From assembly GCA_017962545.1 (NCBI GenBank), contig JAGCVD010000036.1, positions 33,148-97,147 on the forward strand: 64,000 nucleotides of DNA. Reading direction: 5' to 3'. The translations under genes were made by a program, and so were the position numbers. Positions 1 through 58,500 of the stretch are shown here, in pieces (within the stretch, counting starts at the first letter, position 1; each line of letters begins with the position of its first letter). Source of the DNA: Bacteroidales bacterium (GTDB taxonomy: Bacteria > Bacteroidota > Bacteroidia > Bacteroidales > P3). The notes below the pieces were generated by a model. The model was not told where the DNA came from. It saw nothing but the letters and a program-made list of their open reading frames with translations, and made no database searches.

Positions 1-420
1 CCGCCACAGGGCAAGAACTTGTCTACACCTGCTGGTTCGACCAAGACTACAGCACCCACCAGACCTACAACCTCGCCAACGGGATCAACCTCATCGATGT
101 CACCACCCTCAGCGAGGGGTATCATATCCTGCACCTGCGCCTCGGCAGAGGTTCAAGTTCCTCCGCCCGTAGTTTCCTTTTCTACAAACCCATTGAGGAG
201 GACACGACCGTCTCAGGGCAGGAACTCGTCTACACCTGCTGGTTCGACCAGAACTACAGCACCCACCAGACCTACAACCTCGCCAACGGGATCAACCTCA
301 TCGATGTCACCACCCTCAGCGAGGGGTATCATATCCTGCACCTGCGCCTCGGCACAGGTGCAAGTTCCTCCGCACGTAGTTACCTTTTCTACAAGCCCAT
401 GCAGCAGGACACAACGGCGA
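1..420 (+). repeat. 207-bp (69-codon) in-frame tandem repeat: two near-identical copies plus a degenerate third
   Basis: nt 9-215 align with 216-422 at a fixed offset of 207 with few mismatches. The peptide is QELVYTCWFDQ(D/N)YSTHQTYNLANGINLIDVTTLSEGYHILHLRLG.G.SSSARS.LFYKP. The window starts inside a copy. Confidence 0.9.
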
Positions 421-3400
421 TAGACGCTTCGCAGTCAACGCTGGTCTACTGGTTTGATGGGGAGACAACCCCTCACAAGATTTCACCGGCGTTAGGTTCC
501 CATATCATAGTGCCACCCGCTATTGAGTGTGGGGAACAAGGCTATATCCATACTGCGCTGAAGGTGGGTGGACGGTATGTCACTTCCGTCAGGAGCCATC
601 GTTTTGTAATGATGGACTCTGTATGTTGCATTGCCCCGTTGTATGTGACCGTTGACAGCATCACCGAAACGGGTGCACGTATCCATTGGGCATACAACCG
701 CGAGGAGAATTTCTCCATTGCCATTGATACCATCCCATTCTCTCCCGATAGCACTACGCCAACTCTGTCCCTGACAGATACCGTCTACCGCTTCTCCGAC
801 CTGCATTCCGCCAAGGACTACTACTATGCTGTGAAAACCGACTGCGACACGCATTCGAATCCTTGGGTGACGGGTACATGGACAACGATCTGCCGGACTC
901 TGACGCAGACGGTGGTGGCAACTTGCGACAATTATACATGGCGCGGACAGGATTATACCCAAAGCGGTGCGTACCGTGACACGGTGGTGAGCGTGAATGG
1001 CTATGACGAGACATGCGACAGCATCTATGAGTTGCAGCTGACATTGCACTACAGCGACAGCGCGGTGGTGGACGTGACGGCTTGCCGCAATTACACATGG
1101 CACGACAGCACCTATACCGTCAGCACCGACACAGCGCGTTTCGAGACAACCACACGGCACGGCTGCGACAGCCTCGTGATCCTGCACCTGACGGTGAATA
1201 ACAACACCTATCCCGACAGCACGGTGTACGACACTGTATGTGGTCACTACGCATGGCATGGGCGGACATACAGTTCCACAGGTGTATACACCTACCCACA
1301 CGAATATGCCGGCTCCCCCTGTCCAAGCATCGACACGTTGCGGCTGACGGTGTACCCAAAGTACGACATCCATCAGTATGCAGCCATTTTCGAGGGTGAC
1401 AGCACATGGTTTGACGGCAACTGGTATACATTGGCGGGGGTGTATCGGGACAGCCTTGTTAGTGTAAACGGCTGCGACAGCATCAGAACTCTGCATGTGA
1501 GCATCAAACCTGTGGGGGTGCAGATTGAACAGTCCTCAGTGTGCCAGGGTGTGGCATACGCGGGCAACCATTTCCAAGTGCCGGAGAGCGTCACGGCCGT
1601 CTCCACGGGAGTGCTGATGATGCGCGATACATTGCGTAGCCGTGGATTCGACTCTATCATTTTTGGCTTGGATCTGGATGTGATGTTGGCACATCTGAAT
1701 CCTGTTAGGAATATGACACCGATACAAGGAGATACTATCCGGACTGGATCGATTGTGCTGCGATGGAATGCTGTTCGCGCTGCGACAGGATACGGGGTGT
1801 ATGTATGGAAAATCGGGGAGTCGATGCCTACAACACCGACATATACTACGCCATACACATTTCAACCCATTACCACCTACGATAATTACACTACATATAA
1901 TTGGAAAGTGGAATCGTTCAATCCATGCGATACGATAGATGGCACGGTGCAACAATATTCCATTTATAAACGACCTAAACTGATTGCTTGGAATGATACA
2001 ATCTTTTTTGGTGAAGTTGGGTTCAATCAATCAACAACCCGTAGCATAAGATTCGATGGTTCCAATCTGGTGGATTCCATTTATCTATCGCTGTATGGTG
2101 CTGACTCTGCCATGTTTGGCATCACATCTAATCGGTTGAACAGATTGGGTGGTAGTATAGATGTGACATTTACACCTACTATGGCTCAGCGCACGTATAA
2201 TGCCTATCTTGTGGCTGAAAGTGGAGGTTTGCAAGATACAGTATCTCTTAGTGGATTGTTGGCAGGATTTTATGTTTTTACCATTCAGCCGATAGATAGT
2301 ATACAATCACCATCCACGCCAGTCAATATCGTTGGCACGCTGACAGATGTGACTGGAACCCCATTGGAGAATGAATTGGTGGATGTGTATGTTACTATAA
2401 TGGGACGCACAATAATTGTCACTGATAACACAGATGCACAGGGGCACTTTGGTATGACCTACGTTCCCCTTACTTCTGAGTGTGGGTATTACGAAGTGGG
2501 AGCTGCTTTGCATGGAGACACGGAACGAGAGACACTCGAATCGTTCAATATCCCTGGTATAAGTATCGTTACTGTACGCCCTGTGTGGGTGGTAACACAA
2601 GGCGATACTTTAATGGGCAACATTGAGATACGGAATCGCTGCAATATGACGTTGCATAATATTACGGCATTAGGCAGTATTCTGCCAGCTGGTTTAATTA
2701 TCTCGTTCGATACTATAACACTTGCTCCATTTTCCAGTGCATATATGACTTTTTATTTGGTAGGTGATAGCGTCTCCCCGAACAACCAGTATGAGACGCT
2801 TCGTATCGCCACTAAGTGTGATGAAGGAAGACTTGCTAATTTGAATGCATATTACTACTGTCAAAGGCCTAGTGCTGACCTGCAAATAGCATTCGACAGT
2901 CTGGAATGTGCCATTGTGCCAGGTCAGCAGAAAGTGGTGGATGTAGCATTATACAACAATACTGACAACATTTTTCACAATGTGCAATTACAGATACCCT
3001 CAGGGCTCATCGGCGTGAGTTTACTGAAAACCGATAGTATATACAGCATTGCCCCGCATGACTCACTTTTCATACCATTGTTGATATACTTTCCTGACGG
3101 GACACCGCTTGCTCCCATCACTGGAGATTTTGTTGTGAGTGCCACGGGGATAGGTCCACAGTTGATACCTTTCGTACTAAACATGGTTTCTGATGCTGTG
3201 GGAAGTCTGCGTGTCATTGTTTCTAATGAATACACTTATTACAATAATGGTCCGCATGTTAGTGATGCTACAGTGTCTGTCGTTGGCTACTATAGTCTTG
3301 ACACTATTGCGTGGGGGGTGACGGGAAATAATGGACAGGTGCTGTTTGACTCGTTACCGGAAGGGTATTACATGCTACATGTCAGTGCACCAGAAAATAA

Positions 3401-6400
3401 TGATTTTTCGAAAATAATACAAGTCAAGGGTGGGTTGGTCAATCTGCAAAATGTTGATCTTGATTTCCAGGCGGTGACATATAGTTTTGAGGTGTACCAA
3501 AAAGATCTTGACGACCATTGGGGTGTAAGGCTAAAAACTGATTACAAGACCAATGTGCCCAAACCTGCAATCGTGCTAAATATACCGAAACTCAACATAA
3601 ACAATGATGGTAGTTTTAGTAGTTTTGACATAACGGCAACCAATTATGGATTGGTAGATTGCTACGATGTCTCGCTGATAATACCTACATCAGAGACGTA
3701 TGAGTTTGTACCATTAGTAGATGTTATTGATACAATAAAGGCTCTGAGCAGCGTGATGATTCCCTGTATGGTACGCAATAAGTTTATATACGATACCATC
3801 CAGTCAATTATAAGTTCAAGCCATTATGTGGCAGATACTACTTATTATATCCACACTTATACACAGATTTTTGAAGATTATTACGATACAATGATATATG
3901 TGCCCGTAACGGACACAATCAACGACACGATCACCCATGGTGTTGATGTTTGGGACACTTTTTTGGTTAGTTTGCCCCAATATGGTACGGACACTGTTGT
4001 GGATTCGGTGATAAAAAACATTATTTTAATAGATAGTCGGACATACGATACTCTAATAATAATTGGTGAGGAATCTTATCTTGAATACGGAAGTTGCGAA
4101 ACCTTGCCATTCCGATTGTTGGCACATTATAAATGTGACAATAATACCCAAAAGGAGGTCTTCTCGCATTTTGTCATAGAACCGATAGACTGTTCCACAA
4201 CAAAAGAAGAAGCCACAGAAAAAGCACGGAGAATAGGGGAATGTAGGAATTGTGGAGGTTGTATCGACTGTTATCACCCGAATCCAGATCCTCGGGTAGG
4301 CCCTGACCCGAGTCCGGTGCAGGATACAGGATTTATTTATCGGCCTGATATTAAATTGCCCAAGTTAATACTACCTGAGCTACCCCCAATCTTCACTCTT
4401 CCATGGGAATGTGAACCATGTTGGTATGCTGCATTAAGAAATGGACTTGAATGTGGGGGAAATATTCTGTTAACTATTGCTACAAATGGTATTTATACTC
4501 CATATTATAGAGCAGAAACCATAAAACAGGCATCATCAGGATTGAGTCATAGACCTGACGTATGGAGAATAGGTACAAGTGGACTTCATGAAGTCGCAAG
4601 TAATGATGCAATAGCGTACAGGGTTCAGCACACTGCATGGAAACGGGCTGTGCGTAGTAAGAATCCTGCCGATGTAACCAAAGCGGTAATAAGAGAAGGG
4701 TATAATTATACTAGGACATCTGTGAGGTATATGGATGAAGCTCTGTATTACAAGAAAATGAGTGATGCTGTTGACGCTTTCGGATATACAACAAGTTCCC
4801 TCGGTATAAGTAGGAATCTCTACGAAAAAGAGTATTTAGAGGCATCGAAAAATTTGATTTATATGGGGGTTGGGATGAAATTTCCTTGGATAGGGACTGC
4901 CATAGGGTGTCTCGAAAACGTAAAAGATGCTTGGAATATTTGTTTTGGTTCCTCATCTGTCTATGAGATACCATGGATGCGTTCCAGGGTTACCTCCGAT
5001 ACTATACTATATCCTACAAATATTCAGTATGTATTAGAATATTATGACACCATACATGCAATATGTAATAGGATATTGAACGATACTCTTGTTGTTTATT
5101 CTTCCCACCCAGAAATCGTCACTGATATAGTTTCTTATTTGGTCTCGGTTGATAGCGCCATTCTGGATAGTGTCTCTCGATGCTATGATACAACCATAAC
5201 TGTGATAGACACTTCTATTCTGAGAAGATATGTGGAACGATGGAATAGAACAATAAGCTACTATAAAAATGGTTGGATATCTCCTGAGTTTGTTCCTGAA
5301 GGTTTCTCTACTGACTATTTCTTTCTCGATACCAATACAACACAAAAATTAGTTGAATTAGAACTATATGCCATGGATCAAGATTATTGGTCAATCGATG
5401 AAATGATGGTTGCTACTATAGATTCTTTAATTTCATACCCCAATAAACGTTCCGTCTGTGCCGGTGTGTCTCTCCAGTTCTCGCAAGAGGTGGCCATGAC
5501 ACGCGAAGCTTTTGAGGGGATTCTCACTATCAAGAACCCGCACGACACCGCCGCACTCCGCAATCTGTCTTTGGCATTCACCGTGACCGACACGGCAGGA
5601 CACGACTGCTCCGACAAGTTCGACATCAGCATTCTCCGGCAGGAGGGCGTGGGTGCCGATAGCAGCATCGCACCAGGCAGTACTGGTACTGTCACCGTGC
5701 GCTTTGTGCCGCTCATGTCGGCAGCGCCGACAGACTCGGTGCCATATCTCTTCGGCGGCACTGTCGACTACACCAACCCCTATACCCACTTGGATGTCTC
5801 CGACGACCTGCGCCCCGTAAGGCTTACCGTTAGCCCCTCGCCCCATCTGCGCCTCGACTATTTCATGCCTCACGACATCATTGCCGATGACCCGATGACA
5901 GCACCTATGATAGAGTCCGCCGTTCCCGCCACCGTCGGTCTCCGTGTCCTCAACGATGGCATGGGCATCGCCAGAAATGTCCGTCTCTCGGCACTCTCCC
6001 TACAGATTACTGAGAACCGGCAAGGGTTGGCTGTCAACTTTTCCATGCTCAACACCATGCGCAATGGTGCCGGATTCTCCTTACCCCTTGGCGACATCTC
6101 ACTGGGTGCTATCAACCCGCAGAACACCCAAACGCTGGAGTATTCCTTTGTCAGTTCCCTGTTGGGAACACTGACCGTCCGCGACATTGAGGTTATCCAC
6201 AACAGCTCGGTCGACGACCACGACATGAACCTCGTGGATGCCTACGCCCACAAGCTTGTCCACCCCGTCATGGAGTACAAGGCAGGCTCTGACAGCATCC
6301 ATGAGTTCCTTACTGACGACGTTGCCAACGGTCTTGACCGTCCCGACAGCCTCTTCTTCTCTACCGGTCGCGCAGTCCCTGTCCTGATGGCAGACAGCAC

Positions 6401-8987
6401 CATTTTCAACCACTATGTGGAAGCGTTGGACACCATGGTGCAGGTGACCCTCTATCCCGATACCATCGGCTGGAACTACGGCACTACTGCAGATCCGGGC
6501 CGTGGCAAGTACGAGATTGTCTCCTGCGTCCGCGATGATAATGTCCGCATTCCCTTGGATAATGTCTGGCTCACTTTTGTTGACTTGCCTGATGAATTGG
6601 ATCCTGTGTATGTCAACAAACTGCACCTGCTTGACACCCTCCCGGAAATGCGGCCTACGGTCTATAATGTCACGTTCCGCCGCCTACCGGGTCTGCTGAT
6701 GGTGGACAGCATCACACACCTCCCGTTGGTGGACACCTACATTCCTGTCGACTCCTTCGTGGTGCATTTCAATAAGGGCGTCCTCGACACCACTTTCACC
6801 TATGCCGATCTCTCCCTCAAGTGCAATAACGGAGGGGAGATGATGGACAGCACGGTCACCGTCACGCGCTTGGATGACACCACCTTCAGTGTCGACATTT
6901 CCCGCAAGACCTATGGATTCGGCCTCTATATCCTAAAGGTGATGGCTGACGGCATCCGCGACTTGAGCGGCCACTATGGTATCGGCGGAATGGAGGCGCA
7001 CTGGGTGCGTACCACCTGCGACCCCTATTACGACAGCATCTCCCTCAGTGTCTGCGACAGCCTCCTGTGGCAGGATACCCTTCTGACTGCTTCGGGCATC
7101 TATTACGACACCTTGCCAGGAATGTATGGCTGTGACACCATTTTGGTGTTGAACCTCACTGTAAACTACAGCAACACGGCAATCGAGACCATCACCACCT
7201 GCGACAGCCTCACATGGCACGGCGCCACCTACGCCACCAGCACTAATACACCCACCTTCACCTCCCTGAATTCCGCAGGTTGCGACTCTGTGACCACCCT
7301 CCACCTCACCGTCAACTACAGCAACACGGCTATCGAGACCCTCACCACCTGCGACAGCCTCACCTGGCACGGCCAATCCTACACAACCACTACCTCCACA
7401 CCCACCTTCACCTCCCTGAATGCCGCGGGCTGCGACTCTGTGACCACCCTCCACCTCACCATCAACTACAGCAACGCGGCGATCGAGACCCTTACCACCT
7501 GCGACAGCCTCACCTGGCACGGCCAATCATACACATCCAGCACCTCCACGCCCACCTTCACCTCCCTTAACGCCGCAGGTTGCGACAGCGTCACCACCCT
7601 CCACCTCACCGTCAACTACAGCAATACAGGAACCGAAACCCTCACCACCTGCGACAGCCTCACCTGGCACGGCCAGTCCTACACCGCCAGCATCTCCACA
7701 CCCACCTTCACCTCCCTGAACGCCGCAGGATGTGACTCTGTGACCACCCTCCACCTCACCGTAAACTACAGCAACACAAGCATTGAGACCGTGACGGCGT
7801 GTAACAGCTATGTGTGGCACGGGACGGAGTACACCGCCAGTACCAATACGCCAACTTACACTACTACCAATGCTGTAGGTTGCGACAGCGTGGTAACACT
7901 GCACCTTACCATTATCGAGTGCTCGACAACGGCCATCACGGCCTGCGACAGCTACACATGGCATGGCGTCACATACACCTCGGGCGGGACATACATGGAC
8001 GGCACCGACACGCTGGTATTGACTCTCAACTACAGCACTTCCGCCACGGAGACGGTCACAACGTGCGACTCGTACACTTGGCACGGGACAACATTCACGA
8101 CAACGGGAACTGTGACCGATACGCTGACCAACGCTGCGGGTTGCGACAGCATGACGACCCTCAACCTCACCGTCAACTACAGCAACACAGGGACGGAGAC
8201 CGTGACAGCGTGCAACAGCTTCATCTGGCACGGGACGGAGTACACCGCTTCGACGGATACCGCCACCTACACAACTACCAATGCGGCGGGATGCGACTCG
8301 GTCACAACGCTGCTCCTTACCATCATTGAGTGCTCTACTACGACCATCACGGCTTGCGACAGTTACACGTGGCACGACAGCACTTACACGGTGAGTGGTC
8401 TCTACACAGACGGCGTCGACACGCTCGACCTCACCATCCACTACAGCACGACAGGCACAGAGACCCTCGCCGCCTGCGATAGCATCAATTGGCATGGCAA
8501 TACCTACACTGCCAGCACATCCACGCCGACATTCGACACGCTCAACGTATGGGAGTGCGACAGCACGGTTACGCTGAACCTCACCATCCACTACAGCGTG
8601 CATGACACGCTGACGGAGACGGCTGTCGACAGCTTCCTGTGGGATGGCAGGACACTGACGGAGAGCGGGAGTTATTCCTACGAGGGTTTGACAGTCGAGG
8701 GGTGCGACAGCATCGTGGTGCTGAACCTTATCGTCACGCACGACTCGACTTTCATCGACTTGCCCGACGGACGCGACATCCGCGTCTATCCCAATCCCAC
8801 CTCGGGATGGCTGACAATCGAAGCCGAGAATGTCATGGAAGTCAGGGTATTCGACAACCAAGGCAAACTGGTCAAAGTCTTCCGAAAGACGAATCCCATC
8901 GACTTGACAGAACTGCCCACTGGCCAATACCTGCTGCACATCTTCCTGCACGACGGCAGCGGCGTGAAGAAGGTCATCAAACGGTAA
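3..8987 (+). CDS. giant secreted multidomain surface protein (T9SS cargo), 5' end outside the window
   Basis: I hand-translated frame 3 from nt 3 to 398 and found no stops; the ORF track starts only at the first ATG (399). The C-terminus (IRVYPNPTSGWLTIEAE...GQYLLHIFLHDGSGVKKVIKR) fits the T9SS type-A sorting domain pattern. It has carboxypeptidase-regulatory-like stretches (e.g. VSDATVSVVGYY...GQVLFDSLPEGYYMLHV) and about 16 CxSxxWHG...GCDS modules near the start and the end. Confidence 0.85.
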   Translation, partial: ATGQELVYTCWFDQDYSTHQTYNLANGINLIDVTTLSEGYHILHLRLGRGSSSSARSFLFYKPIEEDTTVSGQELVYTCWFDQNYSTHQTYNLANGINLIDVTTLSEGYHILHLRLGTGASSSARSYLFYKPMQQDTTAIDASQSTLVYWFDGETTPHKISPALGSHIIVPPAIECGEQGYIHTALKVGGRYVTSVRSHRFVMMDSVCCIAPLYVTVDSITETGARIHWAYNREENFSIAIDTIPFSPDSTTPTLSLTDTVYRFSDLHSAKDYYYAVKTDCDTHSNPWVTGTWTTICRTLTQTVVATCDNYTWRGQDYTQSGAYRDTVVSVNGYDETCDSIYELQLTLHYSDSAVVDVTACRNYTWHDSTYTVSTDTARFETTTRHGCDSLVILHLTVNNNTYPDSTVYDTVCGHYAWHGRTYSSTGVYTYPHEYAGSPCPSIDTLRLTVYPKYDIHQYAAIFEGDSTWFDGNWYTLAGVYRDSLVSVNGCDSIRTLHVSIKPVGVQIEQSSVCQGVAYAGNHFQVPESVTAVSTGVLMMRDTLRSRGFDSIIFGLDLDVMLAHLNPVRNMTPIQGDTIRTGSIVLRWNAVRAATGYGVYVWKIGESMPTTPTYTTPYTFQPITTYDNYTTYNWKVESFNPCDTIDGTVQQYSIYKRPKLIAWNDTIFFGEVGFNQSTTRSIRFDGSNLVDSIYLSLYGADSAMFGITSNRLNRLGGSIDVTFTPTMAQRTYNAYLVAESGGLQDTVSLSGLLAGFYVFTIQPIDSIQSPSTPVNIVGTLTDVTGTPLENELVDVYVTIMGRTIIVTDNTDAQGHFGMTYVPLTSECGYYEVGAALHGDTERETLESFNIPGISIVTVRPVWVVTQGDTLMGNIEIRNRCNMTLHNITALGSILPAGLIISFDTITLAPFSSAYMTFYLVGDSVSPNNQYETLRIATKCDEGRLANLNAYYYCQRPSADLQIAFDSLECAIVPGQQKVVDVALYNNTDNIFHNVQLQIPSGLIGVSLLKTDSIYSIAPHDSLFIPLLIYFPDGTPLAPITGDFVVSATGIGPQLIPFVLNMVSDAVGSLRVIVSNEYTYYNNGPHVSDATVSVVGYYSLDTIAWGVTGNNGQVLFDSLPEGYYMLHVSAPENNDFSKIIQVKGGLVNLQNVDLDFQAVTYSFEVYQKDLDDHWGVRLKTDYKTNVPKPAIVLNIPKLNINNDGSFSSFDITATNYGLVDCYDVSLIIPTSETYEFVPLVDVIDTIKALSSVMIPCMVRNKFIYDTIQSIISSSHYVADTTYYIHTYTQIFEDYYDTMIYVPVTDTINDTITHGVDVWDTFLVSLPQYGTDTVVDSVIKNIILIDSRTYDTLIIIGEESYLEYGSCETLPFRLLAHYKCDNNTQKEVFSHFVIEPIDCSTTKEEATEKARRIGECRNCGGCIDCYHPNPDPRVGPDPSPVQDTGFIYRPDIKLPKLILPELPPIFTLPWECEPCWYAALRNGLECGGNILLTIATNGIYTPYYRAETIKQASSGLSHRPDVWRIGTSGLHEVASNDAIAYRVQHTAWKRAVRSKNPADVTKAVIREGYNYTRTSVRYMDEALYYKKMSDAVDAFGYTTSSLGISRNLYEKEYLEASKNLIYMGVGMKFPWIGTAIGCLENVKDAWNICFGSSSVYEIPWMRSRVTSDTILYPTNIQYVLEYYDTIHAICNRILNDTLVVYSSHPEIVTDIVSYLVSVDSAILDSVSRCYDTTITVIDTSILRRYVERWNRTISYYKNGWISPEFVPEGFSTDYFFLDTNTTQKLVELELYAMDQDYWSIDEMMVATIDSLISYPNKRSVCAGVSLQFSQEVAMTREAFEGILTIKNPHDTAALRNLSLAFTVTDTAGHDCSDKFDISILRQEGVGADSSIAPGSTGTVTVRFVPLMSAAPTDSVPYLFGGTVDYTNPYTHLDVSDDLRPVRLTVSPSPHLRLDYFMPHDIIADDPMTAPMIESAVPATVGLRVLNDGMGIARNVRLSALSLQITENRQGLAVNFSMLNTMRNGAGFSLPLGDISLGAINPQNTQTLEYSFVSSLLGTLTVRDIEVIHNSSVDDHDMNLVDAYAHKLVHPVMEYKAGSDSIHEFLTDDVANGLDRPDSLFFSTGRAVPVLMADSTIFNHYVEALDTMVQVTLYPDTIGWNYGTTADPGRGKYEIVSCVRDDNVRIPLDNVWLTFVDLPDELDPVYVNKLHLLDTLPEMRPTVYNVTFRRLPGLLMVDSITHLPLVDTYIPVDSFVVHFNKGVLDTTFTYADLSLKCNNGGEMMDSTVTVTRLDDTTFSVDISRKTYGFGLYILKVMADGIRDLSGHYGIGGMEAHWVRTTCDPYYDSISLSVCDSLLWQDTLLTASGIYYDTLPGMYGCDTILVLNLTVNYSNTAIETITTCDSLTWHGATYATSTNTPTFTSLNSAGCDSVTTLHLTVNYSNTAIETLTTCDSLTWHGQSYTTTTSTPTFTSLNAAGCDSVTTLHLTINYSNAAIETLTTCDSLTWHGQSYTSSTSTPTFTSLNAAGCDSVTTLHLTVNYSNTGTETLTTCDSLTWHGQSYTASISTPTFTSLNAAGCDSVTTLHLTVNYSNTSIETVTACNSYVWHGTEYTASTNTPTYTTTNAVGCDSVVTLHLTIIECSTTAITACDSYTWHGVTYTSGGTYMDGTDTLVLTLNYSTSATETVTTCDSYTWHGTTFTTTGTVTDTLTNAAGCDSMTTLNLTVNYSNTGTETVTACNSFIWHGTEYTASTDTATYTTTNAAGCDSVTTLLLTIIECSTTTITACDSYTWHDSTYTVSGLYTDGVDTLDLTIHYSTTGTETLAACDSINWHGNTYTASTSTPTFDTLNVWECDSTVTLNLTIHYSVHDTLTETAVDSFLWDGRTLTESGSYSYEGLTVEGCDSIVVLNLIVTHDSTFIDLPDGRDIRVYPNPTSGWLTIEAENVMEVRVFDNQGKLVKVFRKTNPIDLTELPTGQYLLHIFLHDGSGVKKVIKR
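7150..7760 (+). repeat. four near-identical 150-bp (50-codon) tandem coding repeats, the core of a degenerate array spanning about 7020-8740
   Basis: gcgacagcctcac(a/c)tggcac recurs at 7201, 7351, 7501 and 7651 (period 150). The peptide unit is T(I/L)TTCDSLTWHG.(T/S)Y...T(N/S)TPTFTSLN(S/A)AGCDSVTTLHLT(V/I)NYSN. Confidence 0.95.
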
Positions 8988-49540: not shown

Positions 49541-52387
49541 TTAGCGCACCACGATGCGGCGGGCGGGCAGGCTCGCAACCTTGACGAGGTAGACACCCGT
49601 CTGCGGCAGACGGATGTACTGCTCGTCGCTGGCGACGGCGACATGGCCCACCAGGCGGCCGGCGACGTCGTAGACGTTGACGGTCATCTGGGCAGCGCCA
49701 CGCACCACCACACCATTCTCGCGGGCGGCGATGGTCACGCCGGCAGCCTCGGCGGCGTCGATGCCGTTGGAACGTGCGAAGAGGGCGGCGATGACGATGT
49801 TGCTGTCGACGGTGACGGTGTAGGTTTCACTGGACTCAAGCAGGTCGGCGGTCATCTGCGTGACCGAGAAGGTATACCAACCTTGGAAGACGTAGCCTTC
49901 ATCGGGCGTGGCGGTGAGGGTAGCCTCGCTGCCGGCAGCATAACGGCCAGCACCCCTGACGGTGCCACCCACATTCATCTCATAGTCCGTGTTGACCACA
50001 TAGACGGTCACCGTGTAGTTGATGTCGTTGTTGGTGGTGAACAGGCAGCTCTCCGACCAGTCGGTCTCCTCGCCGTCGCAGAGGCCCTGCACCTGGAACT
50101 CATAGGTCGTGTTGGTGTCGAGGCCTTCGAGGTCGAAGCTGTTGGTGTTGACGTTGACGTAGGTCCATTCACCGGCGGGAGCCGCCTCGCGAGAGCAGTT
50201 GAAGTCGTCAATGAGGAGGTAGTTGGCATCGTAGTCCACATGGTGGATGGCGATATAGCCGTAGCCGCTGTAGCGGCCCAGGTTGATGGACACTTTGTTC
50301 CACTCTCCGTTGTCGGGAGCGGGAGCCATGGCCTGGAGGGTCACGGTGAAGCTGGCGGTGTCGTTGTTCGTGGTGGAGAGGAGCACCTCGTAGCTGTCGG
50401 GCCAGCTTGAGTTGGTGCGCACCCAGAAGGTCAGGGAGTCACCCAGGGGCACCTGCGGGGTCACCAGCCAGTTGTCGGCCTCGAGGGCAGAGCTATTCCA
50501 GCTCCATGCACTGGCGCAATAGTCGCCGCTGTGGGCCGGAAAATCGAGTTCATCCGAGGCGGGATTATAGGTATACCAGCCTTCGCTGTGGCCGTCGACG
50601 GTGTCGCCCGCCGTGTAGATGGTCCACTGGCTGAGGCCGTTCTCGAAGTCGTCGTTGATGCCCTCGTAGGTCGCGGCGGTGCGATAGCGCACAACGTAGG
50701 CGGAGTCGAAGCCGCGCCAGTTGAGGGTGGCCGCGTTGCCGGCGACATCCGTGGCAGCCAGGAGTGTGGGCACGGGGCAGGCAACGTCGGTGGTGAAGAA
50801 GGTCGCGGTCCAGGCACTCATGCCGTCAACGGCACCGCAGTTGCCCTTCACGCGCACATAATAGCCCGTCACCGGGGTGAGGTCTTCAAGTGGGTAAGGG
50901 CTTGTGGCGTTGTTCATGTGAATCCACATCAGGTCGGCGTTGTCGACAAAGGCACGGATCATGAAGGAGGCATCTTCAGCACTCTCATAGAAATCGCCCA
51001 AATCGGCCCATTCGTTATCGTACATAATCCATCTGCCGTTCTCGCCGCCGTCGTTGCCACTCAAAGCCATGAAATAGGTGCCGGTGGCCGTGAGGGTAAT
51101 CCAGAGGTTCTGGGTTTGGTTAATCTGGATGGGGTTGATATAGACCTCGCGCATGCCGTTGGTGCCTTCGGTGGCCACGGTGACGGTGCCGATGAGGGTG
51201 CCGGGGGCATCGTCGCCGCCGCTGTAGATGTTCACCGTGACGGTGTTGTCGGCATAGTAGTTGTTGGATGTCTCATAGAAGGCAATCTTCGTGAGGAAGT
51301 TGCCCGTGAGCATCGAGGAGGGGTACATCACGCCCCAAGTCCATGTTTGGTCAGTTTCAGAACCCACCCTTTCAGATACCGTGTCGTTGTCATACTGCAG
51401 CCAGGTGGCAGTGGCGCTGGGGGTGTAGGCGGCATATTCGAGGTCGTAGCTGTTGCTGGTGCCGTTCCACATCACGTCGGCGGTGAAGCCCGAGATGTTG
51501 TCGACAGCGAGATCCGTGGGGGCTGGGCAGGCCACGTCGGTGGTGACGCTGACAAGGGCCATGCGCGAGGCGTCGGTGGCTGAGCAGTTGACCTCCACGC
51601 CGAAGGTGTAGCGAGTCTCGGGGGTGAGGCCGGTGACGGTGTAGGTGGCGGCGGTGATGCCGGTGGCGACAATCGAGGTGTCGGTCATGTTATACACCGA
51701 GTAGTTGGCGCCCGTGTTGATGGTGTCGACCCAAGTGAGGGTCACCTCGTGGTTGGTGACGTTGCTGGCGGTGAGGTTTCTCACGGGGAAGCAGGGGGAC
51801 GAGCCGGCGGGGTAGTAGTCGAAGGTCACCCTGGGGAGGAAGTCGCGCTGGGTGGCAGAGACGGAGGACAGGTCGCTGTAGCTGTAGCCCTGCACGCTCG
51901 CACCGGTGGAATCGACGCCCGTCCAGGTGGAGGTGACGTAGGTGCCTTCGACAGTATTTTCCACAGCCACGAGGAGGTTGCCGCCATTGTAGGAGTAGGG
52001 GCTGTCGAAGGTGACGACCATGGTGTTGTTGCTGATGCTCAGGCTGCCGGAATAGACTTGCGTCATGCCCGAGACGGTGGCGAAGTCGCTGATAGTGCTG
52101 CCAGGCACCTCGGAGAGGTAGACATTGAAGTGCGCATCGCCCCAGTCGACGGAGCTCTGCGCGGCGTAGAATGTCATCCCGGTGAGGGTGCCGCCACCCA
52201 TGGTGGTGAGGATGTCCGACGGATAGACGAAATGCGCCTTCAGGTAGGCATCGCAATAGAAGCCGTAGACAGGTACATAGCCATTGGAGGCCGAGCCGTT
52301 GCACACAGTCAGTGTCGACTGTGCCTGCATCGACCACGGCATCATCAGTGCCGCGAGCAGCAGGAGTTTTTGTAAAGTTCTTTTCAT
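49541..52387 (-). CDS. T9SS cargo surface protein (948 aa): N-terminal beta module, FN3-like domains, cleaved-adhesin-like domain, InlB-B-repeat-like domain, CTD
   Basis: Signal peptide (MMPWSMQAQ). FN3-like CFPVRNLTASNVTNHEVTLTW...YTVTGLTPETRYTF. DFENGLSQWTIY...DNWLVTPQV resembles the gingipain/HagA cleaved-adhesin domain. The C-terminus ...RLPQTGVYLVKVASLPARRIVVR is a T9SS CTD. Confidence 0.85.
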   Translation of the reverse strand: MKRTLQKLLLLAALMMPWSMQAQSTLTVCNGSASNGYVPVYGFYCDAYLKAHFVYPSDILTTMGGGTLTGMTFYAAQSSVDWGDAHFNVYLSEVPGSTISDFATVSGMTQVYSGSLSISNNTMVVTFDSPYSYNGGNLLVAVENTVEGTYVTSTWTGVDSTGASVQGYSYSDLSSVSATQRDFLPRVTFDYYPAGSSPCFPVRNLTASNVTNHEVTLTWVDTINTGANYSVYNMTDTSIVATGITAATYTVTGLTPETRYTFGVEVNCSATDASRMALVSVTTDVACPAPTDLAVDNISGFTADVMWNGTSNSYDLEYAAYTPSATATWLQYDNDTVSERVGSETDQTWTWGVMYPSSMLTGNFLTKIAFYETSNNYYADNTVTVNIYSGGDDAPGTLIGTVTVATEGTNGMREVYINPIQINQTQNLWITLTATGTYFMALSGNDGGENGRWIMYDNEWADLGDFYESAEDASFMIRAFVDNADLMWIHMNNATSPYPLEDLTPVTGYYVRVKGNCGAVDGMSAWTATFFTTDVACPVPTLLAATDVAGNAATLNWRGFDSAYVVRYRTAATYEGINDDFENGLSQWTIYTAGDTVDGHSEGWYTYNPASDELDFPAHSGDYCASAWSWNSSALEADNWLVTPQVPLGDSLTFWVRTNSSWPDSYEVLLSTTNNDTASFTVTLQAMAPAPDNGEWNKVSINLGRYSGYGYIAIHHVDYDANYLLIDDFNCSREAAPAGEWTYVNVNTNSFDLEGLDTNTTYEFQVQGLCDGEETDWSESCLFTTNNDINYTVTVYVVNTDYEMNVGGTVRGAGRYAAGSEATLTATPDEGYVFQGWYTFSVTQMTADLLESSETYTVTVDSNIVIAALFARSNGIDAAEAAGVTIAARENGVVVRGAAQMTVNVYDVAGRLVGHVAVASDEQYIRLPQTGVYLVKVASLPARRIVVR

Positions 52388-52571: not shown

Positions 52572-55500
52572 TTACTGTCTGACCACGACGCGGCGGGCGG
52601 GCAGGTCGGCGACCTTGACGAGGTAGACGCCCGTCTGCGGCAGACGGATGAACTGCTCGTCGCTGGCGGCAGACACATGGCCCACCATGCGGCCGACGAC
52701 GTCGAAGACGTAGACCTCAGCCTCGGCGGCGCCACGCACCACCACACCGTTCTCACGGGCAATGATGGTCACGTTGGAGGCGTCGACAGCGTCGATGCCG
52801 ACATTGGCGCGGAAGGCGGCGGTGAGGGCCATGGTGGTCTGTTCGAGGGTGATGGTGAAGTACTCGAGGCGGCTGAGGGTGTCGCCCTGAGCATTGACCC
52901 AACCGAGGAAGGTGCTGTTGTTGACGGCGACGGCTGTCAGCGTGACCTCATCGCCCAGGGTGCCACGATAGACGTTGAAGGGCATCTGCTGGCCGTTGAA
53001 GAGCACCTGGCCCAGCGTGCTGTCGACCTGGACGGTCAGCAGGGCACTGTTGGCGCCGATGCGCTCGAACATGGCCACCACGACGACATTCTCTTCGAGG
53101 GTGAAGGTGTAGACACTGTCGGCGGTAATCAGCTCGCCACCGAAGCCCATGGCGGAACGGGTGTACCATCCGTCGAACAGGTAGCCGCTGTCAGGCGTGG
53201 CGGTGAGGGTCACCTCGGTGCCGGCCAGGTAGGAGCCTGCACCCGTGACGGTGCCACCCACATTCAGCAGGCCTTCGGTGTTGGCCACCACGATAGCCAC
53301 ACTGTAGTAGTTACCAATGGTGAGCACAAGGACTTCGGTGCTGTCGCAACCCGCAACGGTCTGGGTATGGAAGTAGTAGGTACCCGACTCGGTGTAGACC
53401 GAGTCATGCCAGGTGTAGCTCTCGAGGGCGATGACGGAGTCGACAATCTCGACGCTGTGGTTGACCGTGAGGGTGATGGTGACGATGCTGTCGCAACCAG
53501 CAATGGTCTGCAGCGAGTCGATGATGACGGTCGAGGTGGTGTACCACACGTCGTTCCACTGGAGGCTGTCGCAGTCTGCCTGGCCATCGTTGTACGTGGT
53601 GCTGTAGTTGATGGTCAGGTGCAGGGTCGTCACGCTGTCGCAACCAGCGGCGTTGGTGGTGGTGTCAGTCGGTGTGTTGGTGCTGGCGGTGTAGGCGGTG
53701 CCATGCCAGGTGTAGCTGTCGCAGGCCGTCACGGTCTCAGTGCCCGTGGTGCTGTAGTTGAGGGTGAGGTTCAGCGTGTCGGTGCCGTGGTAGTAGGTGC
53801 CGCCCACGGTGTAGGTGGTGCCAAACCAGGTGTAGCTGTCGCAAGCGGTGATGTCCGTCGTCGAGCACTGGATGATGGTCAGGTGCAGCGTCGTCACGCT
53901 GTCGCAACCGGCGGCATTGGTGCTGGTGTAGGTCGGCGTGTTGGTGCTGGCGTTGTAGGTCGTGCCGTGCCACACATAGCTGTTGCAGGCCGTCACAGTC
54001 TCGATGCCCGTGTTGCTGTTGTTGATGGTCAGGTGCAGGGTCGTCACGCTGTCGCAGCCGACGGCATTGGTGGTGGTCCTGGTGGGATTGGCAGAGCTGA
54101 TGTAGTTGGTGCCGTACCATGCGAAGCTGTCGCAGGCGATGGCGAAGGTGTCGCCCGTGGTGCTGTAGTTGATGGTCAGGTGCAGGGTCGTCACGCTGTC
54201 GCAACCGACGGCGTTCATGCTGGTGTCGGTCGGCGTGCTGGTGCTGGCGGTGTAGGCGGTGCCGTGCCAGGTGTAGCTGTTGCAGGCCGTCACGGTCTCG
54301 ATGCCCGTGTTGCTGTGGTTGATGGTCAGCACCAGGGTGTCGGTGCCGTCGGTGTAGGTGCCACCCACCGTGTAGGTGTTGCCATGCCAAGTGTAGCTGT
54401 CGCAAGCGGTAATCTCAGTCGTCGAGCACTCGATGATGGTCAGGTGCAGGGTTGTCACGCTGTCGCAGCCGGCGGCATTGGTGGTGGTGAAGGTCGGCGT
54501 GTTGGTGCTGGCGGTGTAGTTGGTGCCATGCCACACATAGCTGTTGCAGGCCGTCACCGTCTCGATGGCCGTGTTGCTGTAGTTGATGGTCAGGTGCAGG
54601 GTCGTCACGCTGTCGCAGCCAACAATGTTGGTGCTGGTGTAGGTCGGCGTGTTGGTCGAGGCAGTGTAGTTGGTGCCGTGCCAGGTGTAGCTGTCGCAGG
54701 CCGTCACCGTCTCGGTGGCCGTGTTGCTGTTGTTGATGGTCAGGTGCAGGGTCGTCACGCTGTCGCAACCAGCGATGTTGGTGCTGGTGTAGGTCGGCGT
54801 GTTGGTCGAGGCGGTGTAGTTGGTGCCGTGCCAGGTGTAGCTGTCGCAGGCGGTCACAGTCTCGATGCCCGTGTTGCTGTAGTTGACCGTCAGGACGAGG
54901 GTATAGATAGAGTCGGCATTGGGGGCATAGACAGTGTCGGCGACCGTGGTGCTGGCAATGTAGTTGGTGCCGCGCCAGATGTAGCTGTTGCAAGCCGTCA
55001 CAGTGTCGTTGGCAAAGGCCTGGAGATTGACGCTGTCGGTGGTGAACCGCAGCGAGGTGCTCCAAGCGGTGACGCCGCCGTCGCAAATCGAGTTCACACC
55101 CTGCACTTCCCATGCATAGGTGGTGAGGCTGTCGAGGCCGGTGAGCTGGTAGGGGTTGGTGACGTTGTTCACCACCGTGGTGTCGGAGGCGGGAATTAGC
55201 AGCGGGGTGGTGGAGACAAACACGCCGAAGACTTCTGCGGCCCAGCCCGGGTCTTGGCCTCTCGCCACGAAGGTGAGGGTGCCGCCCAAAGCCACATTCG
55301 GGATAATCATCCAGTTGTCGGGATACAGAACATCGTTGTTGTAGCTTGCGGAAGTGGCGCAATAGCTGCCGTTGCCCACATCGTGGCCGTTGCCATCCTG
55401 GCTGGTACTCTGAATATACCAATTCTGTCCGTCGCCGTCTTGGTCGGCGATGACCCAGTTGGCGGGCATCACGCCCGACTCGAAGTCCTCGTTGACGATG

Positions 55501-58500
55501 GTATCGCCATTGGCGTTGGTCAGCACGATGTCGTCGATGTTCAGGCGGAACATGTCGGTGACGTGGTAGTGGCGGAAGGCCACATTGCCCGTGCCGGTGA
55601 AGCCGCTCAGGCTGACGGTGTATTGGGTCAATGTATCATGAGCCGTGGAGTCTCCTCCTATTTGCGTGAAGTTGGCCGTATCGAAATTACTAATCCGAGC
55701 CGGCTGCCAGTAGCGCACATTGTAGCTCTCCTGATAGCCAATCCAGTCGAGGGTGGCGCGGTTGGAGAGGACGTAGGGGTTTGTCAGGCTGTTGGGAGCA
55801 GCGCAGGGCGAAGGTGTGGTGAAGCTGGTCATAGTCCAGGCACTCTCGCCGTCGACGGCACCGCAGTCGCCTTTCACTCTGGTGATATAGCCCGTCTCGG
55901 GAGTCAGACCCGTGAGAGAGGCGGGGGAGGTGGCATTGAGGACGGTGGTCCAGGTGAGGGAATCGAGGTTGAGGGGGGTAATCTCGCCGCGAATCATCCA
56001 GCCATTGCCTGCGAGGCTTGAGGCGGCATCGCCGAGGTGCATCCAAACACCGCCATTATAGATCCACTGGTTGTTGGGTTCGGAGGAAGAGCAAGCAGAC
56101 ATGACGTAGGTGCCGTAGGCGTCAATAACAATCCACAGGTCTTGCGTGATATCAACCATCGCAGGATTGGTGAACGTAATCTCATGGAAGCCATCCGAAC
56201 CTGTGGGGGTGACAGTCTGCGAATTAAGCAGCATGATCGGCTCTGTAGCACTGCCGCTGTAGATGCTAATGGTGTAGTCCGAAGTACTGTACGATGCAGT
56301 TTCAAAGAAAGAGACCTTCGTCAACCTACCGGGAGTCAGCATCGTGGAAGGATACCTCACGCCCCACCTCCAGTTCTGCGAGGAGGAGTTACCGATGCCG
56401 TTGGTATAGGTACTGTCGTCATAGCTCAGCCAGATGGGATTAGCTACGCTGCCAGTGGAATCGGCGGGGAGGGGTGCATATTGCAGGGTGTAGCTGTTGG
56501 CAAAGTCGTTCCAGCTGGCCCTGGCGTGGGTGGGATAGATGCTGTCCATCGTCAGGTCGGTGGGAGCGGGGCAAGCGATGAGGGTGGTGGCGCTGACGGT
56601 GAGCAGGCGGGAAGCGTCGGTGGCCGAGCAGTTGGCGGCCACGCCGAAGGTGTAGGGGGTCTCGGGGGTGAGGCCGGTGACGGTGTAGGTGGTGCCGGTG
56701 ATGCCGGTGGCGACGACCGAGGTGTCGCTCATGTCATAGACCGTGTAGGTGGCGCCCGTATTGATGGTGTCAATCCAGGTGAGGGTCACTTCGTGGTTGG
56801 TGACATCGCTGACGGTCAGGGTTGTGGGCATGGGGCAGGCCACGAGGGTGGTGGCGCTGACGGTGCGCAGGCGGGAGGCATCGGTGGCCGAGCAGTTGGC
56901 GGCCACGCCGAAGGTGTAGCTGGTCTCGGGGGTGAGGCCGGTGACGGTGTAGGTGGTGCCGGTGATGCCTGTGGCGACGACCGAGGTGTCGCTCATGTCA
57001 TAGACCGTGTAGGTGGCTCCCGTGTTGAGGGTATCGGTCCATGTGAGGGTCACGCCACGGCTGGTGACGTTGCTGGCGGTGAGGCCTCTCACGGGAAGGC
57101 AGGTGACAGTGGTGGGGATGAATTCGATAGTCATCTTGGGGAGGAAGTCGCGCTGGGTAGGAGTGATGGCATCCAGGCTGCTGTAGCTGTAGTTCTGCAC
57201 ACTCGCACCAGGGGCACTGATGCCATACCAGGTAGAGGTGACGTAGGAGCCCTCGACAGTATTTTCCACAGCCACGAGGAGGTTGCCTCCCATGTAGATA
57301 TACTCCTCAGTGAAGGGAACAACCATCATGTTGTCGCTGATGCCCAGGCTGCCGGAGTAGACCAGCGTCATGTCCGTCACATCGGCAAAGTCACTGATGG
57401 TCGAATCGGTCGTCTCGGCAAGGTAGACATTGAAGTTCGCGTTGCCCCAGTTGACGGAGGATTGCGTGGCATAGAATGTCAGCTGAGTGAGGGCGGCGGT
57501 ACCCATGCTGGCGAGGTCAGTCGACGGGCAGATGTAATGCGCCTTCAGATAGGCGTCGGCATAGAAGCCGTAGACAGGCACATAGCCATTGGTGGCCGTG
57601 CCGTCGTTGATGGTGATGCTGTAGGCGTTGGAGGGGGTAAAGTCGCATACGGCGCTCCAGTCACTCGTGTCGCCGGCTCCGCAGATGGCCCTGACACGGG
57701 CATAGTGGGTAGCCTCAGCGGTGAGGCCGGTGAGGTTGAGGATGGTGGAGTCGGTCACAATGACGGAGGCGGCTGTCGAGAAGTCGGAAGCGGTGTCGTA
57801 TTCAACCTCCCAGGCGGTCTGGGTGCTGTCGGCAGTCCAGTTCAGCGTGGCGATGGTGCCGTTGCCGGGGGTGACGGTGGCTGCCAAGCCAGTGGGTCTG
57901 GTACAGACAGGTCCGGCGCCGGGGATGATTCCCAAACGGATGAGATTGCGGTATTGACGTTGGCCCTTGCTGCCGCTAAAAGAGTTCACATTTGTCAGGT
58001 CGGGAACGTAGCTGTCGCTGTAATAGTCAAGGGCGAGGTAGGTAGAGCAGCTGGAGGTGCGGAACTTGTAGGCGCTGCCCGGGTAGCCGTTGGTGGGGTC
58101 GTAGCAGCACACCAGCAGGTTGCTGATGCCGTCATATTGGAAGGGGGTGTCGAGATTGATGGTGATCCAACCTGCACTGTCAGCCCTAAGGGTGTCGGAC
58201 CAGACAAGGTCGCTGGCCGAGATGGGCTCCATATCGGTGTTGGAGGCGAAGACTGTCTTGCTCACGTTCTTCATATACATCTGAACGCCAGGCGACGCGA
58301 ATGCGGCCGTGTGGGCGTAGTTGAACGAGATGGAGGTGATGGTTCCTGCCCCGCCAATCTCTTCGGGGGTGAAGAGCTGCTGCGTCAGGGAATAGTTAAA
58401 GTACGTGTTGATGGGCAGGTAGTAGTAGTTGGCGGTGTTGGCGGTGTCGCCGATGGTCACAGTGGTGGCAGTGCCGCCGCCGGGCTGGATGAGCAGCTGG

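What the first reader, a model, noticed from the sequence alone, without database searches (positions are those of the whole stretch)
7020..8740. Unassigned ~50-aa two-cysteine module (CDSYTWHG...GCDSV.TL.LT.NYS), about 40 copies across three giant cargo proteins
The consensus read from the translations is T.T(A/T)C(D/N)S(Y/L).W(H/Q/N)G..Y..S....(T/D)...N..GCDS(V/I).TL.LT(V/I)NYS. A shorter variant (IIECSTT.ITACDSYTWHG.TYT.(S/G)G.Y.DG.DTL.LT) alternates with it. By my count of the CxSxxW motif there are about 16 copies in gene 3..8987, at both ends (nt about 900-1500 and 7020-8740). There are about 12 in 52572..59090 and about 13 in 59459..64000. The 948-aa paralog has none. Four consecutive copies at 7150-7760 are near-identical at the DNA level (period exactly 150 nt), which implies very recent expansion or ongoing homogenisation. 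I cannot match this module to SprB, PKD, HYR, FN3, Flg_new or any other named repeat.
Basis: partly seen in the sequence, partly recalled or inferred. Interest (0 to 1): 0.7.

Follow-up and report, generated by a model that had tools for sequence, protein, structure and literature searches.

The report
Unnamed disulfide-linked stalk repeat, T9SS proteins
A roughly 50-residue all-beta repeat with no curated family name makes up the stalk-like part of three giant surface proteins in this Bacteroidales genome; it is very common across Bacteroidota, and its two cysteines appear to link neighbouring repeats rather than closing one repeat.

Summary
The module is real. A profile built from the window finds 16 copies in gene 3..8987, 12 in 52572..59090, 13 in 59459..64000 and none in the 948-aa paralog. 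Nothing in Pfam-A, NCBIfam or PDB sequences matches it. Yet a three-unit profile hits 29,537 cluster representatives, nearly all named ones being Bacteroidota proteins with a T9SS C-terminal sorting domain. AlphaFold2 predicts three units as all-beta (pLDDT 96.4). The only significant structural neighbours are the Ig-like repeats of the Aureispira grappling-hook protein GhpA. The "near-identical" copies are 81-87% identical in DNA, so they are not very recent. Copy number does differ from a close relative (12 vs 14, 13 vs 18). Cysteine loss statistics reject an intra-unit disulfide. They support Cys6 of unit i pairing with Cys32 of unit i+1 (OR 76, p=2e-57). The short variant compensates with a Cys at position 45 of the preceding unit (13/14 vs 1/1101). 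In 91% of units the Bacteroidota O-glycosylation sequon sits at a fixed position. Best reading: a disulfide-stapled, probably glycosylated stalk repeat. It is an uncurated new member of a known kind.

The parts
7038..8759 (+). C-terminal array of 12 repeat units in gene A (aa 2346-2919 of the frame starting at nt 3). It includes the four most similar 150-nt copies at 7185-7784.
   Evidence: hmmsearch domains; TRF period 150; pairwise identity
7017..7019 (+). Cap cysteine (RTTCDPY) 12 residues upstream of Cys6 of the first unit. It is the inferred partner of Cys32 of that first unit.
   Evidence: Cys list. First units keep Cys32 when a Cys lies within 30 aa upstream: 62/74 vs 2/8.
7929..8051 (+). 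Short 41-aa unit lacking the Cys32 loop. The preceding unit ends ...TIIECSTT (Cys at nt 7920-7922).
   Evidence: AF2 of this context gives pLDDT 89.5
8340..8462 (+). Second short unit in gene A. The preceding unit ends ...TIIECSTT (Cys at nt 8331-8333).
909..1529 (+). N-terminal array of 4 more divergent units in gene A. It has an upstream cap Cys (TTICRTL), and the last unit lacks Cys6.
8784..8978 (+). T9SS type A C-terminal sorting domain of gene A, directly after the array.
   Evidence: Pfam Por_Secre_tail E=5.3e-12 and TIGR04183 E=5.2e-12
53292..55007 (-). Array of 12 units in gene B (aa 1362-1933), including two short units. The first unit lacks Cys32 and the last lacks Cys6.
   Evidence: block duplication B3-B5 / B7-B9 at 82-91% DNA identity
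60194..62101 (-). Array of 13 units in gene C (aa 634-1269 of the partial frame). It has two junctions where Cys6(i) and Cys32(i+1) are both lost.
52581..52793 (-). DUF6383 C-terminal domain of gene B, a CTD-like tail. It follows two Flg_new_2 domains that lie after the array.
   Evidence: Pfam PF19910 E=1.1e-7 and PF18998 E=7e-17
59468..59680 (-). DUF6383 C-terminal domain of gene C.
   Evidence: Pfam PF19910 E=8.8e-9

Best explanation
The module is a compact (49-51 aa, five-strand) all-beta extracellular repeat. In tandem it forms a rod-like stalk in cargo proteins of the type IX secretion system.

Proposed sequence of events:
- The protein is exported by Sec.
- The array folds in the periplasm.
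- Each unit is covalently stapled to the next by a disulfide between Cys6 of unit i and Cys32 of unit i+1. This gives an interleaved ladder of disulfides. In the short variant, which has lost the Cys32 loop, Cys6 of the preceding unit pairs instead with a new Cys at position 45 of that same unit.
- The nearly invariant Asp33-Ser34-(Val/Ile/Thr/Leu)35 is probably O-glycosylated by the general Bacteroidota system.
- The folded protein crosses the outer membrane through the T9SS and is anchored by its C-terminal domain.
- The array lies next to that domain, so it would hold the N-terminal functional domains away from the cell surface.
- Unit number changes by tandem duplication and deletion, which would tune stalk length.

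Shown: the repeat, its spread, its position next to the CTD, the confident all-beta prediction, the Cys covariation, sequon conservation and copy-number difference.

Inferred: the disulfides themselves, glycosylation, rigidity and the spacer role.
For: - Copy counts and consensus are confirmed.
- AF2 on 3 units gives pLDDT 96.4 and pTM 0.71, all-beta with 5 strands per unit. The short-variant context gives pLDDT 89.5.
- The only Foldseek PDB hits with E<=1e-3 are GhpA grappling-hook fragments: 9flp_A at 5.3e-5 and 9fls_A at 4.3e-4, both prob 1.0. GhpA is again the top hit for the second model.
- GhpA is a T9SS substrate. Its stem is made of 52 Ig-like repeats with disulfides between nearby domains and glycans on every domain (bioRxiv 10.1101/2024.01.29.577165).
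- 88 of the 120 best homologs carry PF18962 or PF13585 CTDs.
- Arrays end a median of 146 aa before the C-terminus, with up to 79 units per protein.
- Cys statistics for Cys6(i)-Cys32(i+1): OR 387, p=5e-9 in 123 proteins; OR 76, p=1.7e-57 in 271 proteins.
- The last unit lacks Cys6 in 44/101 arrays vs 9/1012 internal units, p=1e-41.
- Cap Cys are present upstream of first units and downstream of last units that keep the otherwise unpaired Cys.
- A short unit is preceded by Cys45 in 13/14 cases vs 1/1101, p=3e-28.
- Under this pairing every Cys of the window's four arrays is paired except three at position 36 in C.
- The sequon D(S/T)(A/I/L/V/M/T) (PMC8550257) is present at positions 33-35 in 1183/1300 units.
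- PorU, PorV and a PorP/SprF protein are encoded in the same window.
- The B ortholog in a close relative has 14 units vs 12 here, and the C ortholog has 18 vs 13.
Against: - The Cys-Cys distances were never measured, and the pairing rests on covariation only.
- Instances within one protein are not independent, so the p-values overstate the evidence.
- The host is an anaerobic rumen or gut Bacteroidales. Whether it oxidises periplasmic cysteines was not checked.
- TM-scores to GhpA are low (0.42-0.48), and there is no sequence similarity to it.
- Gene A also has 4 units near its N-terminus, which a pure C-terminal spacer role does not explain.
- Asp-Ser-Val could be conserved for folding alone.
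- Nothing here tests binding, rigidity or length dependence.
- Copy-number differences between short-read MAGs could be assembly artefacts.
Confidence: 0.6

Rival explanations
1. The units are ligand-binding (adhesin or carbohydrate-binding) repeats. Multivalency, not length, would be the selected property. The conserved Tyr9, Trp11 and Tyr16 would form a binding surface for plant or microbial glycans in the rumen.
For: Many homologs come from rumen and gut Bacteroidales MAGs. Three aromatic positions are above 90% conserved. Gene A has units at both ends. Other domains in these proteins are adhesin-like: Cleaved_Adhesin, choice-of-anchor J and GEVED.
Against: In a 50-aa domain these aromatics are most simply the hydrophobic core. 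The variable positions are Thr/Ser-rich, with no conserved polar patch. The arrays sit between other domains and the CTD. No carbohydrate-binding module or lectin family matches, and no such structure appears among the Foldseek hits.
Confidence: 0.15
2. It is a diverged member of an already named repeat family (SprB repeat, PKD, HYR, Big or Ig-like) that HMMER simply fails to connect. It would then be known in all but name.
For: The fold-level match is to GhpA Ig-like repeats, and the GhpA authors liken GhpA to SprB. There is a weak PKD_4 match at E=0.076 in 2 of 41 units. A three-unit profile weakly resembles antibody light chains, with best E=9e-4 and no individually significant stretch.
Against: No unit and no whole protein reaches any Pfam or NCBIfam threshold over the repeats. 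At 50 aa and 5 strands the unit is smaller than PKD, HYR or Ig domains. The Cys pattern and the inter-unit pairing are not features of those families as far as I know (my own knowledge, not tested).
Confidence: 0.15
3. The arrays laterally associate into multi-chain fibres, as GhpA forms heptameric hollow stems. On this view they are not single-chain stalks.
For: The best structural neighbours are parts of the heptameric GhpA stem and neck. A PorP/SprF-family gene, which is the kind of anchor proposed for GhpA, lies in the window at 21102-22106.
Against: There is no sequence homology to GhpA. The PorP gene is not adjacent to genes A, B or C. The monomer prediction is already highly confident. 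Oligomerisation was not tested.
Confidence: 0.1

Closest known systems
Ig-like stem and neck repeats of the Aureispira grappling-hook protein GhpA (PDB 9flp, 9fls, 9flw)
   Same: Both are T9SS substrates with long tandem arrays of small beta domains upstream of a CTD. GhpA fragments are the only Foldseek hits with E<=1e-3. GhpA has disulfides between nearby domains and glycans on every domain. This module shows inferred inter-unit disulfides and a conserved O-glycosylation sequon.
   Different: There is no detectable sequence similarity. From the paper's numbers GhpA repeats are about 70 aa, against 50 aa here. TM-scores are only 0.42-0.48. Heptamer formation is unknown here.
SprB-type repeats of gliding-motility adhesins (Pfam PF13573)
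   Same: Both occur in giant Bacteroidota surface proteins secreted by the T9SS and built largely of short tandem beta repeats. Some homologs of this module carry CHU_C (type B) CTDs, as SprB does.
   Different: No match to PF13573 in any of the 41 units or the three proteins. The motif is different (CDSYTW...GCDSVVTLxLT).
Stalk repeats of other bacterial surface proteins (Rib, RTX-adhesin extender domains, Big/PKD)
   Same: Same apparent logic: many near-identical small beta domains in tandem, variable copy number, and a position between the anchor and the functional head. Rib and RTX extender structures appear among the weak Foldseek hits.
   Different: Those hits are not significant (E>0.02, TM<0.25). 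Those families are typically 80-100 aa, and as far as I know they rely on Ca2+ or isopeptide bonds or have no covalent links, rather than an inter-repeat disulfide ladder (my own knowledge, not tested).

Membership tests
T9SS cargo protein (protein level) | C-terminal sorting domain recognised by the T9SS | tested here: met
   Gene A: Por_Secre_tail/TIGR04183 at E=5e-12. B and C: DUF6383 tail at E=1e-7 and 9e-9. PorU, PorV and PorP/SprF genes lie in the window. 88 of 120 homologs have PF18962 or PF13585.
SprB repeat (PF13573) | Match to the family HMM above the gathering score | tested here: not met
   No hit at E<=1 for whole proteins or E<=10 for the 41 single units.
PKD domain (PF00801 / PF18911) | Match to the family HMM above the gathering score | tested here: not met
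   Best is PKD_4 at E=0.076, in 2 of 41 units.
HYR, fn3, Flg_new / Flg_new_2 | Match to the family HMM over the repeat units | tested here: not met
   HYR has no hit. fn3 and Flg_new_2 hits lie outside the arrays, for example B aa 666-735 and 1944-2011. None occurs in single units.
DUF6968 (PF22302) and other Pfam families listed over the repeats in homologs (bpX5, DUF7316, MAAL_N, PAPS_reduct) | At least one individually significant aligned stretch | tested here: not met
   All have 0 significant stretches; the scores are sums of many weak repeat matches. Gene A scores 24.0 bits against a cut-off of 27.
GhpA-type Ig-like stem repeats | Shared fold with solved GhpA fragments | tested here: inconclusive
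   Foldseek E=5.3e-5 and 4.3e-4 with prob 1.0, but TMq 0.42-0.46 and rmsd 6-9 A over multi-domain alignments. The second model gives E=3.4e-3.
GhpA-type Ig-like stem repeats | Sequence homology to GhpA | tested here: not met
   Searches of PDB sequences with the single-unit profile and the 12-unit array returned no GhpA chain at E<=10. The three-unit profile gave 372 hits, and no GhpA chain was among the 60 listed.
GhpA-type Ig-like stem repeats | Disulfides between neighbouring domains | tested here: inconclusive
   Covariation supports Cys6(i)-Cys32(i+1). No coordinates or chemistry were available.
GhpA-type Ig-like stem repeats | Heptameric hollow fibre | not testable with these tools
   No multimer prediction or imaging was available.
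Substrate of the Bacteroidota general O-glycosylation system | Sequon D(S/T)(A/I/L/V/M/T) in a Sec-exported protein | tested here: met
   1183 of 1300 units carry it at positions 33-35, and 35 of 41 in the window. The motif is as given in PMC8550257. B starts with a signal-peptide-like MKKHLQILLLLAALLVPWATRAQ.
Substrate of the Bacteroidota general O-glycosylation system | Glycan actually attached | not testable with these tools
   Needs glycoproteomics.

The most novel reading that the evidence does not exclude
This uncurated repeat defines a distinct way of building long bacterial surface fibres. It would be a chain of 50-residue beta units topologically interlocked by an overlapping ladder of inter-unit disulfides, each spanning about 1.5 units, and coated by one O-glycan per unit. 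That would give covalently reinforced rods, up to 79 units long, used by tens of thousands of Bacteroidota T9SS proteins, including in strict anaerobes thought to be poor at forming disulfides.
Probability: 0.3. Interest if true: 0.6.

Novelty: new member of a known kind. Interest (0 to 1): 0.42.

Why it matters
The repeat covers a median of 59% of the length of the 271 proteins examined. It occurs in at least 29,537 protein clusters at 50% identity. Yet it has no model in Pfam-A or NCBIfam.

Its absence from those libraries causes false annotations. Summed weak matches give spurious hits, and a JGI homolog of the family is named "PAPS reductase/FAD synthetase". A curated family would clean up the annotation of giant T9SS proteins in gut, rumen, marine and soil Bacteroidota.

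The inferred inter-unit disulfide ladder and the fixed glycosylation sequon give concrete, testable hypotheses. They bear on how these bacteria build long, stable surface stalks and on whether anaerobic Bacteroidales form structural disulfides.

Tried and rejected
- Pfam hits over the repeats (DUF6968 in gene A; bpX5, DUF7316, MAAL_N, PAPS_reduct and Glyco_hydro_79C in homologs). Rejected: every one has 0 significant stretches and is an accumulation of weak repeat matches.
- First homolog search with the single-unit profile. It returned only fragments under 100 aa and was uninformative.
- Profile search of PDB sequences with three units. It gave only weak antibody light-chain matches (best E=9e-4, no significant single stretch). 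I treat these as a shared beta-strand pattern, not homology.
- Mean-field DCA on 3,322 two-unit rows, meant to derive contacts. The top couplings were indel artefacts around positions 24-36 and same-position couplings between adjacent units. Not usable.
- Intra-unit disulfide (Cys6-Cys32 of one unit) and Cys32(i)-Cys6(i+1) pairing. Both rejected by loss statistics and by which Cys is missing at array ends.
- The search for related loci with the alignment failed because no stretch was conserved enough. The single-protein run was biased toward close rumen relatives.
- Literature searches for the motif strings and for T9SS repeat descriptions found nothing on this module.
- I could not read model coordinates, so no Cys-Cys distances were obtained.
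Full report
**1. Observation**

I translated the three large genes and built an HMM from 22 clear copies.
- Gene A (frame from nt 3 to 8987) has 16 units: 4 at nt 909-1529 and 12 at nt 7038-8759.
- Gene B (52572..59090, minus strand) has 12 units, at aa 1362-1933.
- Gene C (59459..64000, minus strand, 5' partial) has 13 units.
- The 948-aa paralog D (49541..52387) has none.

The alignment of all 41 units (A1) gives the consensus xTVTACDSYTWHGxxYTxSTTxTxTxxxxxGCDSxxTLxLTINYS. Ser8, Trp11, Tyr16, Asp34, Leu39, Leu41 and Thr42 are at least 90% conserved. The 40-41 aa short variant lacks the loop with the second Cys and follows a unit ending ...IIECSTT or ...IIQCSTT. It occurs twice in A and twice in B.

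**2. The "near-identical" copies**

TRF reports period 150 with 4.2 copies and 87% matches at 7153-7777. Pairwise, the four copies at 7185-7784 are 81-87% identical in DNA and 82-92% in protein, with 5-13 synonymous codon differences per pair. That is a family of fairly old duplicates, not a very recent event.

Across all 41 units the closest pair is B1/B2 at 94.8%. In gene B the block B3-B4-B5 matches B7-B8-B9 at 82-91%, so a multi-unit block was duplicated.

Copy number does differ between close relatives. On contig CAJOIV010000021.1 (red deer MAG) the N-terminal 632 aa of the B ortholog are 95% identical to the window's B. That ortholog has 14 units, with two extra units after the first and the rest in the same order. 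The C ortholog has 18 units against 13 here, and it is split by a frameshift. Both are short-read MAGs, so assembly error in such repeats cannot be excluded.

**3. Is it a named domain?**

No.
- Whole proteins against Pfam-A and NCBIfam give real hits only outside the arrays. These are Por_Secre_tail, fn3, Cleaved_Adhesin/choice-of-anchor J, GEVED, Flg_new_2 and DUF6383.
- Each of the 41 units scanned alone against Pfam at E<=10 gives nothing better than E=0.014.
- Gene A's DUF6968 score (24 bits, cut-off 27) has no significant stretch. In homologs the Pfam families listed over the repeats (DUF6968, bpX5, DUF7316, MAAL_N, PAPS_reduct) also all have 0 significant stretches. They are sums of weak repeat matches.
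- The newer precomputed Pfam lists of the 120 best homologs share no family over the repeats.
- PDB sequences give no real match, whether queried with the unit profile, the three-unit profile or the 12-unit array.
- Full-text searches for the motif strings found no relevant paper.

**4. Distribution**

The 12-unit array finds more than 5,028 proteins at E<=1e-3 among 8,000 scored candidates. A three-unit profile (A2, 49 diverse triplets) searched against 1.84 billion cluster representatives finds:
- 29,537 proteins at E<=1e-3;
- 21,032 at E<=1e-10;
- 10,769 at E<=1e-30, with proteins up to about 7,000 aa.

Named sources are all Bacteroidota: Bacteroidales, Flavobacteriales (Brumimicrobium, Cryomorpha, Fluviicola, Salinimicrobium), Chitinophagales and Aureispira. 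One genome record is titled Glaciecola, but its protein ends in a T9SS sorting domain, so the record is probably mislabelled.

Of the 120 best homologs, 79 list PF18962 and 9 list PF13585, the two T9SS sorting domains. In 271 proteins the median is 22 units and the maximum 79. The units cover a median of 59% of the protein length. The last unit ends a median of 146 aa before the C-terminus.

The window comes from a Bacteroidales MAG (proteins MBP55282xx). It also encodes PorU, PorV and a PorP/SprF-family protein.

**5. Structure**

AlphaFold2 on three units of gene C with alignment A2 gives mean pLDDT 96.4 and pTM 0.71. The model is all-beta with five strands per unit. The last strand of one unit and the first strand of the next are long and separated by a 3-residue turn.

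Foldseek against the PDB gives only two hits at E<=1e-3, and the top three hits are all cryo-EM fragments of the Aureispira grappling-hook protein GhpA:
- 9flp_A, E=5.3e-5;
- 9fls_A, E=4.3e-4;
- 9flw_A, E=2.4e-3 (all prob 1.0, TMq 0.42-0.48).

Everything else (NCAM, Rib, RTX extender, Hsp40) is weak.

The second model covers a long(IIEC)+short+long stretch of gene A. It gives pLDDT 89.5, and the short unit is well predicted. It again has GhpA as its only notable hit.

GhpA is a T9SS substrate. Its stem is 52 Ig-like repeats with disulfides between nearby domains and likely O-glycans on all domains (10.1101/2024.01.29.577165). The resemblance is at fold level only.

**6. Which cysteines pair?**

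I aligned 1,313 units from 123 proteins to the unit HMM, and later 6,480 units from 271 proteins. I then asked which Cys are lost together.

| Pairing tested | 123 proteins | 271 proteins |
|---|---|---|
| Cys6 and Cys32 of the same unit | OR 0.66 | OR 0.33 |
| Cys32(i) and Cys6(i+1) | OR 0.54 | OR 2.1 |
| Cys6(i) and Cys32(i+1) | OR 387, p=5e-9 | OR 76, p=1.7e-57 |

Array ends agree with the third pairing.
- The last unit lacks Cys6 in 44/101 arrays, against 9/1012 internal units (p=1e-41).
- No last unit lacks only Cys32, and no first unit lacks Cys6.
- First units that keep Cys32 usually have a Cys within 30 aa upstream: 62/74 against 2/8.
- Last units that keep Cys6 usually have a Cys within 45 aa downstream: 37/56 against 10/43.

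The short variant fits too. It has lost Cys32, and the unit before it carries a Cys at position 45 in 13/14 cases, against 1/1101 for ordinary junctions (p=3e-28).

In the window this pairing accounts for every Cys in the arrays:
- Gene A, C-terminal array: 24 Cys including a cap Cys at nt 7017-7019.
- Gene B: 22 Cys.
- Gene A, N-terminal array: all paired, with its own cap Cys.
- Gene C: all paired, including two junctions where both partners are lost. The exceptions are three extra Cys at position 36 (aa 911, 1010, 1206), which remain unexplained.

Each inferred disulfide spans 76 residues, or 1.5 units. Successive disulfides therefore overlap like a ladder.

This is inference from covariation. 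I could not read model coordinates. Repeats within one protein are not independent, so the p-values are generous.

**7. Glycosylation sequon**

The Bacteroidota general O-glycosylation motif is D(S/T)(A/I/L/V/M/T) (PMC8550257). Positions 33-35 of the unit (Asp-Ser-Val/Ile/Thr/Leu) satisfy it in 1183/1300 units, and in 35/41 in the window.

The short variant keeps it as Asp-Thr-Leu. Units that have lost Cys32 keep Asp-Ser. Sequon density in the arrays is 3.3-5.2 per 100 aa, against 1.0-2.4 elsewhere in the same proteins. Whether the site is used is untested.

**8. Interpretation**

The best-supported reading is a stalk repeat of T9SS surface proteins. It would be a compact beta unit, stapled to its neighbour by a disulfide and probably glycosylated. 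It sits between the C-terminal anchor and the functional domains, and its copy number drifts by tandem duplication and deletion.

I put this at about 0.6. The rivals are ligand-binding repeats, a diverged member of a named Ig-like or SprB-type family, and GhpA-like multi-chain fibres. None is excluded.

In kind this is ordinary, since surface proteins are often built from tandem beta repeats. In detail it is an unnamed family of very large size with an unusual inferred disulfide topology. I rate it a new member of a known kind, of moderate interest.

Noticed in passing
window 7-412 (+), gene A N-terminus: Tandem duplication of a 207-nt (69-aa) segment, 2.0 copies at 93% identity (GQELVYTCWFDQ[DN]YSTHQTYNLANGINLIDVTTLSEGYHILHLRLG...). 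It is unrelated to the 50-aa module. Gene A runs off the window start.
   Followed up: no
window 19448-27247: Cluster of T9SS machinery genes: a SUMF1/GldJ-like protein (19448-21010, minus strand), a PorP/SprF-family protein (21102-22106, minus strand), PorU (22565-25945, plus strand) and PorV (26054-27247, plus strand). The cargo genes share the window with the secretion and attachment apparatus.
   Followed up: partly
homologs P0121, P0125, P0128, P0130, P0139, P0168: The unmodelled repeat produces spurious Pfam matches that can pass whole-sequence thresholds with 0 significant stretches. Examples are PAPS_reduct at 46.7 bits, MAAL_N at 46.5 and bpX5 at 42.5. One JGI homolog (P0168) is named 'PAPS reductase/FAD synthetase'.
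   Followed up: partly
L035 (CP034120.1, titled Glaciecola amylolytica THG-3.7) 52-5946: A 1,964-aa protein with this repeat and a Por_Secre_tail T9SS sorting domain, in a record named after a gammaproteobacterium. The record is probably mislabelled or the genome misassigned. The organism's identity was not checked.
   Followed up: partly
gene C, aa 911, 1010, 1206 of the partial frame (about nt 61268-61270, 60971-60973 and 60383-60385, minus strand): Three extra cysteines at unit position 36 (GCDSIC / GTDSIC), a normally hydrophobic strand position. Two of them sit in units at the junctions that have lost the Cys6(i)/Cys32(i+1) pair. No partner is evident.
   Followed up: no
window 56568-57053 (gene B, minus strand): A 264-nt tandem duplication (1.8 copies, 92%) lying within the fn3 region of gene B. 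It shows that other domains of these genes also duplicate in tandem.
   Followed up: no
L057 about nt 3861-3876 (CAJOIV010000021.1): The ortholog of gene C in the related red deer MAG is split into two overlapping reading frames inside the repeat array. This is either a frameshift or an assembly error.
   Followed up: no
gene A aa 510-2345 (about nt 1530-7037): About 1,800 aa between the two arrays have no significant Pfam or NCBIfam match, only weak CarboxypepD_reg and fn3 hints. The functional part of this cargo protein is itself unassigned.
   Followed up: no
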